This document shows positions 5,148 to 5,480 of a DNA stretch of 64,000 nucleotides, one piece after another; the stretch's first letter is position 1; every line of letters starts with the position of its first letter. The notes below the pieces were generated by a model, which worked only from the letters and a program-made list of their open reading frames with translations, did not search any database and was not told where the DNA came from. The stretch lies in the NCBI RefSeq assembly GCF_009931435.1, contig NZ_CP043414.1; one strand, given 5' to 3'. The translations under genes were made by a program, and so were the position numbers. The DNA comes from Escherichia coli. GTDB lineage: Bacteria; Pseudomonadota; Gammaproteobacteria; Enterobacterales; Enterobacteriaceae.

Positions 5148-5480
5148 TCGCTTGTCCCGGACTAAGGATTTTAATACATGAAAATGACGTTCATTCGCTC
5201 GTGCTGGCGTCTAAAGAGAGCATGGTAGAGAGCATAAGAAATATCCACGCCGAAGATAAAATTTTCTCCATCGTCATCTAACCTATTAATTATTGTGCTT
5301 AATGTGGGTAAAATTAAGCAAATCTGGCAGGATGTCAGACGTCAAGAATGGAGAACAATAGTTCTCCATTCTTGTTTAACCCCTGATATTCCGGATATAT
5401 TAAGAAACATAACGACTTAAATTATTACTTTGCACCAGCATATGATACAGCTGATGGTAATTTTAAAACCTTACTCAGTT

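What the first reader, a model, noticed from the sequence alone, without database searches (positions are those of the whole stretch)
5346..5371. Perfect 11-bp inverted repeat between ymgC and pdeG
GAATGGAGAAC-aata-GTTCTCCATTC lies 110 bp downstream of the ymgC stop and about 200 bp upstream of pdeG. There is no strong U-run on the ymgC strand, so it may be a protein-binding dyad or an RNA stability element rather than a canonical terminator.
Basis: seen in the sequence. Interest (0 to 1): 0.3.

Follow-up and report, generated by a model that had tools for sequence, protein, structure and literature searches.

The report
U-less RNA hairpin after ymgC
A real, E. coli-specific 14-bp stem-loop lies between ymgC and pdeG; it most likely folds in the ycgZ-ymgABC mRNA as a U-less 3'-end/stability hairpin that shields pdeG from read-through, which is an ordinary kind of element and has not been tested experimentally.

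Summary
The inverted repeat is real and longer than reported. It has perfect 14-bp arms (5343-5356 / 5361-5374) and a 4-nt loop, inside an imperfect ~60-nt palindrome. Chance does not explain it: 0 of 100 simulated sequences had a 14-bp perfect repeat.

It is single-copy, unannotated and has no Rfam match. It is present in about 91% of complete E. coli genomes, in three main allele classes. In K-12 the helix is 25 bp.

Across 17 distinct alleles, every base pair of the core helix is kept on the ymgC/pdeG sense strand. All five variable pairs vary through G·U, which would be A·C mismatches on the other strand or asymmetries in a DNA dyad. One pair occurs as A-U, G·U and G-C. This favours an RNA hairpin on the sense strand over a protein-binding dyad. 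The statistics are weak, however: shuffle controls are not significant and the stems are no more conserved than the flanks.

There is no U-tract, so it is not a canonical terminator. A C-rich, G-poor stretch follows the hairpin, and the cross-species conserved pdeG upstream block starts 73 nt downstream.

Best reading (about 0.45): a U-less 3' stem-loop of the ycgZ-ymgABC transcript, with a Rho-type end that blocks exonucleases. Rivals are an RNase III site, a promoter or dyad element, and a neutral palindrome. No mapped 3' end was found. Interest is low.

The parts
5343..5374 (-). Core stem-loop. On the sense (minus) strand: 5'-CAAGAAUGGAGAAC-uauu-GUUCUCCAUUCUUG-3', 14 bp with a 4-nt loop.
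   Evidence: Found as a perfect repeat. Folding energy is -16 kcal/mol for the 11-bp part. All 238 cells form standard pairs in 17 alleles.
5332..5389 (-). Extended imperfect palindrome. The outer helix pairs 5389-5379 with 5342-5332 and is separated from the core by an asymmetric internal loop (5378-5375). It is continuous with the core only in K-12-type alleles, giving 25 bp.
   Evidence: Folds. Outer helix is 84% paired across alleles. The palindrome's self-hit on the opposite strand explains the '2 places per genome' result.
5303..5342 (-). C-rich, G-poor 40 nt immediately 3' of the core hairpin on the sense strand. This is a candidate Rho-loading (rut-like) stretch.
   Evidence: C 12-13 against G 4-5 in all four allele types, compared with C<=G upstream of the hairpin. 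The feature is described for Rho-dependent ends in PMC6061677. Weak evidence.
5340..5345 (-). TTGACG hexamer spanning the base of the 3' arm. Published gSELEX work proposed it as the -35 of a ycgG (pdeG) promoter (TTGACG-19-TATTTT in K-12).
   Evidence: PMC3946193. The matching -10 is not conserved in the window or in O157-type alleles, and the hexamer is broken by a 1-nt deletion in two strains.
5148..5269 (-). pdeG-proximal upstream block, conserved across Escherichia species and Kluyvera. It probably holds the pdeG promoter and 5' UTR. It starts 73 nt downstream of the hairpin.
   Evidence: Homology with L004-L007 and L009 begins only here. Only 14% of its columns vary. Candidate promoter TTAATA-17-GAAAAT.
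5264..5271 (-). Third copy, in direct orientation, of the arm motif AUGGAGAA, at the edge of the conserved pdeG block. In K-12 it matches the 5' arm at 12 of 13 positions with one gap (UCAAGA-UGGAGA).
   Evidence: (D1, I9). Significance is unknown.
5481..5729 (-). ymgC, the last gene of the ycgZ-ymgA-ariR-ymgC operon. The hairpin lies in its putative 3' UTR.
   Evidence: ORF, RefSeq annotation of close strains, and the operon is reported as one polycistronic mRNA (PMC3509220).
3624..5147 (-). pdeG (ycgG), a CSS-EAL c-di-GMP phosphodiesterase and the downstream gene on the same strand.

Best explanation
The element is an RNA stem-loop made on the minus (sense) strand, in the untranslated tail of the ycgZ-ymgA-ariR-ymgC transcript. 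It begins about 95-105 nt after the ymgC stop codon.

It is not a canonical intrinsic terminator, because no U-tract follows it.

1. RNA polymerase transcribes through the hairpin.
2. Rho loads on the unstructured C-rich, G-poor RNA just downstream and stops transcription before or around the pdeG promoter block.
3. 3'-to-5' exonucleases trim the RNA back to the base of the hairpin.

The hairpin then defines and protects the operon's 3' end. The overall effect is to insulate pdeG, which has its own conserved upstream block, from transcription of the blue-light- and cold-induced operon.
For: **Shown:**
- The hairpin is real and far beyond chance.
- It is single-copy and sits in the same place in 4,955 of 5,426 complete E. 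coli genomes and in 75 of 76 evaluable metagenome contigs.
- Across 17 distinct alleles the 14-bp core helix forms standard pairs in 238 of 238 cells on the sense strand. All 5 variable pairs vary through G·U, and pair 34-41 occurs as AU, GU and GC.
- On the antisense strand the same helix is 89.6% paired.
- For the O157/B2-type allele, carried by about one third of genomes, the antisense fold is 4-9 kcal/mol weaker and its core is disrupted.
- The apical loop and internal-loop zone are hypervariable, 75% of columns against 21% in the stems, p = 4e-4.
- No allele has a U-tract.
- The 40 nt downstream have C 12-13 against G 4-5 in every allele type.
- The hairpin lies upstream of the only part of the spacer conserved with pdeG orthologues in other Escherichia species and Kluyvera. 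In Kluyvera a canonical terminator of the unrelated upstream gene occupies the equivalent position.

**From the literature:**
- Rho-dependent E. coli transcripts end just after stable U-less stem-loops, followed by C>G sequence (PMC6061677).
- ycgZ-ymgABC is one polycistronic mRNA (PMC3509220).
- ymgC mRNA is not detectably polyadenylated (PMC1636475).
Against: - No experimental 3' end was found. The held supplements of Adams et al. 2021 list nothing at MG1655 1,216,9xx-1,217,3xx. Other Term-seq and RNase III supplements are not held. Those data are not from the low-temperature conditions that induce the operon.
- Formal covariation is weak. No pair is changed on both sides relative to the commonest pair, and 34 of 500 shuffles reach the covariation score.
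- The strand-asymmetry argument rests on only 5 variable pairs (about p = 0.03).
- The stems are not significantly more conserved than the surrounding spacer, 21% against 31% variable columns, p = 0.25.
- The outer helix carries mismatches on the sense strand in several alleles.
- A divergent lineage keeps ymgC without the hairpin (L028).
- Strains with IS1 or Tn7-like rearrangements lack it.
- A bicyclomycin-sensitive (Rho) region is called further upstream, at the end of ariR, so many transcripts may never reach the hairpin.
- The 91 nt between the ymgC stop and the hairpin are not C-rich.
Confidence: 0.45

Rival explanations
1. RNase III processing site. The long sense-strand helix, in a read-through ymgC-pdeG transcript or a long pdeG leader, is cut by RNase III. 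This would uncouple the two units or start decay.
For: - The K-12-type allele, the commonest, forms a continuous 25-bp helix at -44.5 kcal/mol.
- RNase III accommodates about 22 bp of dsRNA (PMC6212723).
- The window and O157 types have 14 bp, an internal loop and a 5-8 bp outer helix.
- Evidence for sense-strand RNA constraint applies as in the best explanation.
Against: - The outer helix is not conserved as a paired structure. It is 84% paired, with mismatches on the sense strand in A-type, ST131-type and other alleles. The length needed for RNase III is therefore allele-specific.
- ymgC and ycgG are not mentioned in the main text of the RNase III map, and its supplements are not held.
Confidence: 0.12
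2. DNA-level element. The palindrome is a protein-binding dyad or part of a pdeG promoter. In that reading the -35 TTGACG in the 3' arm, H-NS or RNA polymerase binding, or a regulator recognising the thrice-repeated AAGA(A)TGGAGA motif would matter.
For: - gSELEX places an RpoD-holoenzyme and H-NS site in the ymgC-ycgG spacer and proposes TTGACG-19-TATTTT (PMC3946193). That TTGACG is at 5345-5340, at the base of the hairpin.
- A third, direct copy of the arm motif sits 76 nt downstream, at the start of the conserved pdeG block.
- The A and B alleles are near-perfect DNA dyads.
Against: - The O157/B2 allele breaks the DNA symmetry at 3-4 of 14 positions, always as G·U on the sense RNA.
- Arms of 14-25 contiguous bp with a 4-nt spacer are unlike known operators.
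- The proposed -10 and its spacing are not conserved between alleles, and the 19-nt spacer is poor.
- The consensus scan finds no promoter in the spacer.
- Two strains carry a 1-nt deletion inside TTGACG.
- gSELEX resolution does not pin the site to the hairpin.
Confidence: 0.1
3. No function. The element is a neutral palindrome created by a mutational process, such as template switching or quasipalindrome correction, or inverted duplication of the AAGATGGAGA sequence at the junction of two horizontally assembled segments. It is simply persisting in E. coli.
For: - It sits in a roughly 135-nt segment bounded by two synteny breakpoints. One is about 58 nt after the ymgC stop in L028. The other is about 120 nt upstream of the pdeG ATG in other Escherichia species.
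- The arm motif is repeated at the boundary.
- YmgC is an E. coli-only orphan.
- The stems are not more conserved than the flanks.
- Shuffle controls are not significant.
- The hairpin is lost in some strains, and one degenerate copy exists (L096).
- Template switching can make concerted two-arm changes without selection (established mutational mechanism, from general knowledge).
Against: - All 5 variable core pairs stay paired on one particular strand. Under neutrality roughly one substitution in three would do so.
- The core helix is intact in three deeply diverged allele classes, which differ by about 16% over the spacer, while the loop and internal zone have turned over completely.
Confidence: 0.25
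4. Terminator for an antisense (plus-strand) transcript, using the T-rich tail TTGTTTAA that follows the hairpin on the plus strand of the window.
For: - The plus-strand fold is as stable as the minus-strand fold in this window, -28.3 against -29.1 kcal/mol.
- The sequence after the hairpin on the plus strand is TTGTTTAACC.
Against: - The T-rich tail exists only in the rare window-type allele. K-12 has TTGACACCTG there.
- The scan finds no terminator.
- No plus-strand gene or promoter lies upstream, since pdeG occupies the other strand.
- The O157/B2 allele does not fold well on this strand.
Confidence: 0.03

Closest known systems
U-less 3'-terminal stem-loops of Rho-dependent E. coli transcripts (Dar & Sorek 2018, PMC6061677)
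   Same: - It is a stable stem-loop downstream of the last gene of an operon.
- It has no U-rich tail and no upstream A-tract.
- The DNA just downstream has C>G composition.
- Its stem and loop sizes are like those of intrinsic terminators.
   Different: - No 3' end, bicyclomycin sensitivity or exonuclease dependence has been measured here.
- The helix is unusually long and perfect: 14 bp in the core, and 25 bp in K-12.
- The C>G signal is weak and short.
Canonical intrinsic (Rho-independent) terminator
   Same: A hairpin of adequate stability at the end of an operon, immediately upstream of the next gene's promoter region. Kluyvera has a true intrinsic terminator at the equivalent place upstream of pdeG.
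   Different: - No U-tract follows the stem in any allele.
- The stem is only about 43% G+C.
- It is not detected by the consensus scan.
REP/BIME and other intergenic mRNA-stabilising palindromes
   Same: An intergenic imperfect palindrome that could block 3' exonucleases and separate expression of neighbouring genes.
   Different: It is single-copy in E. coli, has no similarity to the REP consensus, and is not part of a repeat family.
RNase III intramolecular stem substrates
   Same: The K-12 allele offers more than 22 bp of continuous dsRNA. Other alleles have a stem interrupted by an internal loop, as many natural substrates do.
   Different: The required length is not conserved across alleles, and no cleavage data exist.

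Membership tests
Canonical intrinsic terminator | Stable stem-loop in the nascent RNA | tested here: met
   14-bp perfect stem. Folding energy is -29 kcal/mol for 61 nt on the sense strand, z = -7.
Canonical intrinsic terminator | U-rich tract immediately 3' of the stem | tested here: not met
   The sense-strand tail is ACGUCUGACAUCC in the window and ACGCCUGAUAUCCC in K-12. The terminator scan gives 0 hits.
U-less protective stem-loop at a Rho-dependent 3' end | Stable stem-loop not followed by U-rich sequence, downstream of the last ORF | tested here: met
   It begins 91-94 nt after the ymgC stop.
U-less protective stem-loop at a Rho-dependent 3' end | C-over-G enrichment downstream (rut-like) | tested here: inconclusive
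   C 12-13 against G 4-5 in the first 40 nt in all alleles. The stretch is short, partly overlaps the outer helix, and the skew is gone by 80 nt.
U-less protective stem-loop at a Rho-dependent 3' end | Precise steady-state RNA 3' end at the base of the stem; read-through with bicyclomycin; trimming by PNPase/RNase II | not testable with these tools
   No entry at MG1655 1,216,9xx-1,217,3xx in the held Adams 2021 supplements. The Dar & Sorek supplements are not held.
Structured RNA under selection (generic) | Base pairs kept across diverged sequences, with compensatory change | tested here: inconclusive
   The core is 100% paired in 17 alleles, 5 pairs vary via G·U, and one pair occurs as AU/GU/GC. 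But 34 of 500 shuffles reach the covariation score, and no pair is changed on both sides relative to the commonest pair. The strand asymmetry against the antisense strand is 100% against 89.6%.
REP/BIME or other dispersed repeat | Many copies per genome sharing a consensus | tested here: not met
   One locus per genome. The 'second place' is the palindrome hitting itself on the other strand. No other copy exists in the window.
RNase III stem substrate | About 20-22 bp or more of largely continuous dsRNA | tested here: inconclusive
   25 bp in K-12-type alleles. In window and O157 types it is 14 bp plus an interrupted 5-8 bp outer helix. The outer helix is 84% paired across alleles.
Palindromic transcription-factor operator | DNA dyad symmetry conserved across alleles | tested here: not met
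   O157/B2-type alleles, about one third of genomes, are asymmetric at 3-4 of 14 core positions.
Palindromic transcription-factor operator | Match to a known regulator motif, or measured binding | not testable with these tools
   No TF-motif library is available. The only data are gSELEX RpoD and H-NS signals somewhere in the spacer (PMC3946193).
Any Rfam family | Covariance-model match | tested here: not met
   Only a chance-level hit, mir-335 at 18 bits with E = 2.4.

The most novel reading that the evidence does not exclude
The hairpin is a regulated gate rather than a passive end. In K-12-type strains the 25-bp perfect helix would be an RNase III- or helicase-controlled switch. Its 3' arm can alternatively pair with the third motif copy at the start of the pdeG leader (12 bp with one bulge in K-12). 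Transcription of the blue-light- and cold-induced ycgZ-ymgABC operon would then be conditionally coupled to expression of the c-di-GMP phosphodiesterase PdeG.
Probability: 0.07. Interest if true: 0.45.

Novelty: new member of a known kind. Interest (0 to 1): 0.17.

Why it matters
If correct, it gives the unannotated 3' boundary of the ycgZ-ymgABC biofilm and Rcs-modulating operon. It would also explain how the neighbouring c-di-GMP phosphodiesterase gene pdeG is kept transcriptionally separate. It would add one clean natural example, with three diverged alleles that keep the helix through G·U intermediates, to the class of U-less 3' stem-loops. It does not change any general concept.

Tried and rejected
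- **Rfam scan:** chance-level hits only.
- **Consensus promoter and terminator scan:** nothing in the spacer.
- **Second genomic copy:** the '2 places per genome' result turned out to be the palindrome matching itself on the opposite strand.
- **Other species, YmgC query (genome contigs):** the scan confirmed no locus.
- **Other species, PdeG query (genome contigs):** orthologues in other Escherichia species and Kluyvera lack ymgC and the hairpin, so no deep covariation could be obtained.
- **YmgC protein search:** 159 hits, all E. coli, so it is an orphan gene. The divergent lineage L028/L029 has ymgC but no hairpin.
- **Phage and plasmid collections:** no phage match. The 'plasmid' matches are E. 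coli records with ymgC at 88-90% identity, and some of those records are chromosome-sized.
- **Literature, Adams 2021 supplements:** no entry at the site.
- **Literature, supplements not held:** Dar & Sorek 2018, Choe 2022 and Altuvia 2018.
- **Literature, supplements held but empty for this locus:** the TRS, SMRT-Cappable-seq and Cappable-seq files have no ymgC or ycgG entries.
- **Literature, paper not held:** Tschowri 2009.
- **RprA-ymgC RIL-seq/TRIC-seq link:** it concerns the ariR-ymgC spacer, not this hairpin.
- **Small ORF 5295-5420 (+) across the hairpin:** rejected. It has a GTG start, and K-12 has a 4-nt indel inside it.
- **RcsAB-box resemblance of AAGAAT...ATTCTT:** rejected by eye. 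The half-sites are 18-20 nt apart rather than adjacent. This rests on memory of the consensus and was not tested with a tool.

Full report
**1. Observation.**
The reported repeat is present exactly where stated.
- It is longer than reported. The repeat finder gives perfect 14-nt arms, CAAGAATGGAGAAC / GTTCTCCATTCTTG, at 5343-5356 and 5361-5374, with 4 nt between them.
- An imperfect outer helix extends the palindrome to roughly 5332-5389.
- The pattern occurs once in the window against 0.00 expected.
- Only two perfect inverted repeats with arms of at least 14 bp exist in the 64 kb, against none in 100 Markov simulations.
- A 61-nt stretch folds at -29.1 kcal/mol on the minus strand and -28.3 on the plus strand, with z about -7.

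- ymgC is at 5481-5729 and pdeG at 3624-5147, both on the minus strand. ariR, ymgA and ycgZ lie upstream and bluF is divergent (RefSeq annotation of close strains).
- The repeat is 109 nt after the ymgC stop and 198 nt before the pdeG ATG.
- No U-run follows it on the sense strand. The simple terminator and promoter scan finds nothing in the spacer, and Rfam gives only chance-level hits.

**2. Distribution.**
- The 161 nt around the hairpin match 4,955 of 5,426 complete E. coli genomes, once per genome, and nothing is annotated under the match.
- The window belongs to a rare lineage. Only 18 genomes are at least 95% identical here, and most are 60-90% identical.
- A K-12 query seemed to hit two places per genome, but this is the palindrome matching itself on the other strand. 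The element is therefore single-copy and not a dispersed repeat.
- There is no match in phages. The 'plasmid' matches are E. coli records with ymgC at 88-90% identity, some of them chromosome-sized.
- YmgC itself is an E. coli-only orphan, with 159 hits that are all E. coli.

**3. Where it sits relative to the two genes.**
- pdeG orthologues in E. whittamii, two other Escherichia lineages and Kluyvera lack the ycgZ-ymgABC operon. Homology with the window's spacer begins only at GGAGAAAATTTTATC..., about 120 nt upstream of the ATG (window 5269 and below). This block is the least variable part of the spacer within E. coli, with 14% variable columns. It contains the only promoter-like match shared between alleles, TTAATA-17-GAAAAT.
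- In Kluyvera a canonical hairpin-plus-U terminator of an unrelated upstream gene sits immediately before this block.
- Conversely, a divergent E. coli lineage (L028/L029) keeps ymgC, but homology stops about 58 nt after its stop codon and there is no hairpin.
- The hairpin therefore lies in a junction segment of roughly 135 nt specific to the E. coli ymgC-pdeG arrangement. It is upstream of the probable pdeG promoter block.
- B2 strains that have deleted the pdeG 5' end keep the hairpin. IS1 and Tn7-like rearrangements remove it in single strains.

**4. Allele comparison.**
Seventeen distinct alleles were collected from complete genomes and from 78 metagenome contigs. The contigs were retrieved with a flank pattern that does not include the hairpin. 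On the sense strand there are three main classes:
- Window type: CAAGAAUGGAGAAC-uauu-GUUCUCCAUUCUUG.
- K-12 type: a 4-nt deletion makes one continuous 25-bp helix, AUAUCAGGUGUCAAGAAUGGAGAGU-ucuc-GCUCUCCAUUCUUGACGCCUGAUAU, at -44.5 kcal/mol.
- O157/B2 type: CAGGAAUGGAGAGC-gcuc-GUUUUCCAUUCUUG, with three G·U pairs.

On the sense strand the 14 core pairs are standard pairs in 238 of 238 cells.
- Five pairs vary, all through G·U.
- Pair 34-41 occurs as A-U (5), G·U (7) and G-C (5).
- In the outer helix, pair 15-56 occurs as U-A, U·G and C-G.

Counted on the antisense strand, the same core helix is 89.6% paired. The O157/B2 allele then folds 4-9 kcal/mol worse, with its core disrupted. The apical loop and the internal-loop zone have turned over almost completely, at 75% variable columns against 21% in the stems, p = 4e-4.

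This pattern is what an RNA helix read from the minus strand predicts. It is not what a DNA dyad predicts, because the O157/B2 allele is asymmetric at 3-4 of 14 positions.

**Caveats.**
- The sequences are closely related.
- The shuffle control is not significant: 34 of 500 shuffles reach the covariation score.
- The strand argument rests on five variable pairs (about p = 0.03 if either strand were equally likely).
- The stems are not more conserved than the ordinary spacer, p = 0.25.
- The outer helix has mismatches on the sense strand in several alleles.
- Template-switch mutation in quasipalindromes can create concerted arm changes without selection (general knowledge).

**5. Mechanism.**
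A canonical intrinsic terminator is excluded because no allele has a U-tract.

The closest described class is the U-less stem-loop found immediately upstream of the steady-state 3' ends of Rho-dependent E. coli transcripts. Those loops protect against PNPase and RNase II and are followed by C>G sequence (PMC6061677). Here the 40 nt after the core have C 12-13 against G 4-5 in all allele types, whereas the region before the hairpin has C<=G. This is compatible but weak.

Supporting context from the literature:
- The operon is reported as one polycistronic mRNA (PMC3509220).
- ymgC mRNA was a non-polyadenylated negative control in a genome-wide poly(A) study (PMC1636475).

I therefore propose that the hairpin marks and stabilises the 3' end of ycgZ-ymgABC mRNA, and that termination just beyond it insulates pdeG.

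Only three things are shown: the hairpin exists, its core stays paired on the sense strand, and it sits upstream of the conserved pdeG block. Rho loading, trimming and insulation are inferred.

No mapped 3' end was found.
- The held Adams 2021 supplements list nothing between MG1655 1,216,900 and 1,217,399.
- They do call a bicyclomycin-sensitive region at 1,216,634, the end of ariR.
- These data are not from the low-temperature conditions that induce the operon, per PMC3509220.

**6. Rivals.**
- **RNase III site.** It is attractive for the 25-bp K-12 helix, but the required length is not conserved.
- **DNA-level role.** Published gSELEX places RpoD holoenzyme and H-NS in this spacer and proposes TTGACG-19-TATTTT (PMC3946193). 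That TTGACG lies at the base of the 3' arm (5345-5340). However, the -10 and its spacing are not conserved, and two strains have a deletion in the hexamer.
- **Third motif copy.** A direct copy of the arm motif (ATGGAGAA, 5264-5271 minus; 12 of 13 with one gap in K-12) sits at the start of the conserved block. It could indicate a repeated protein site, an alternative RNA pairing partner, or simply the origin of the palindrome by duplication.
- **Neutral palindrome.** This remains a serious alternative at about 0.25.
- **Antisense terminator.** This is unlikely.

**7. Verdict.**
Of its two alternatives, the RNA element is favoured over the protein dyad.

The element is an unannotated, lineage-specific member of a known and common kind, with no experimental support yet. 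Interest is low.

Noticed in passing
window 8339-8376: This is the only other perfect inverted repeat with 14-bp arms in the window: ATACTTTGTACAAT-N10-ATTGTACAAAGTAT. It lies just downstream of bluF, upstream of where bluR should start. From memory, TTGTACA...TGTACAA resembles the MlrA/BluR (MerR-type) operator, so it is a candidate BluR/MlrA-type site.
   Followed up: no
window ~5730-5850 (ariR-ymgC spacer): Adams 2021 supplements call a bicyclomycin-sensitive (Rho) region at MG1655 1,216,634, the end of ariR. [quoted passage not shown] RpoS- and RpoD-holoenzyme gSELEX peaks are also reported in this spacer. The spacer may hold a 3' end, an sRNA and an internal promoter.
   Followed up: partly
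window 5264-5271 (minus) and K-12 equivalent: A third, direct copy of the hairpin-arm motif (AUGGAGAA; UCAAGA-UGGAGA in K-12) lies 76 nt downstream of the hairpin. It sits exactly where cross-species conservation of the pdeG upstream block begins, and it overlaps a GAAAAT -10-like hexamer.
   Followed up: partly
window 3624-6700 versus the E. coli population: The window carries a rare allele of this region. Only 18 of 5,426 complete genomes are at least 95% identical over the hairpin region, and K-12 is 84% identical over the spacer. Yet PdeG is 95% and AriR 99% identical to K-12. This points to old, recombining allele classes at the spacer.
   Followed up: partly
L021, L022 (B2 strains SaT040 and ATCC 11775); L024 (LF3-1); L025 (ST540): B2-phylogroup strains have a deletion removing the pdeG start and N-terminus (annotated as a pseudogene). 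LF3-1 has an IS1-associated deletion of bluF through ymgC. ST540 has a Tn7-like element (TnsD family) ending about 100 bp upstream of pdeG.
   Followed up: no
L004-L006 (other Escherichia species): In E. whittamii and two other Escherichia lineages, pdeG directly follows icd and a YebC-like gene. The whole e14 / bluRF / ycgZ-ymgABC region is absent there. This is consistent with the operon region being a later insertion upstream of pdeG.
   Followed up: partly
L096 (metagenome contig SCPN01000420.1): This is the one copy in which the hairpin is degenerate, with several deletions in both arms. It could be real decay or an error-prone assembly.
   Followed up: no
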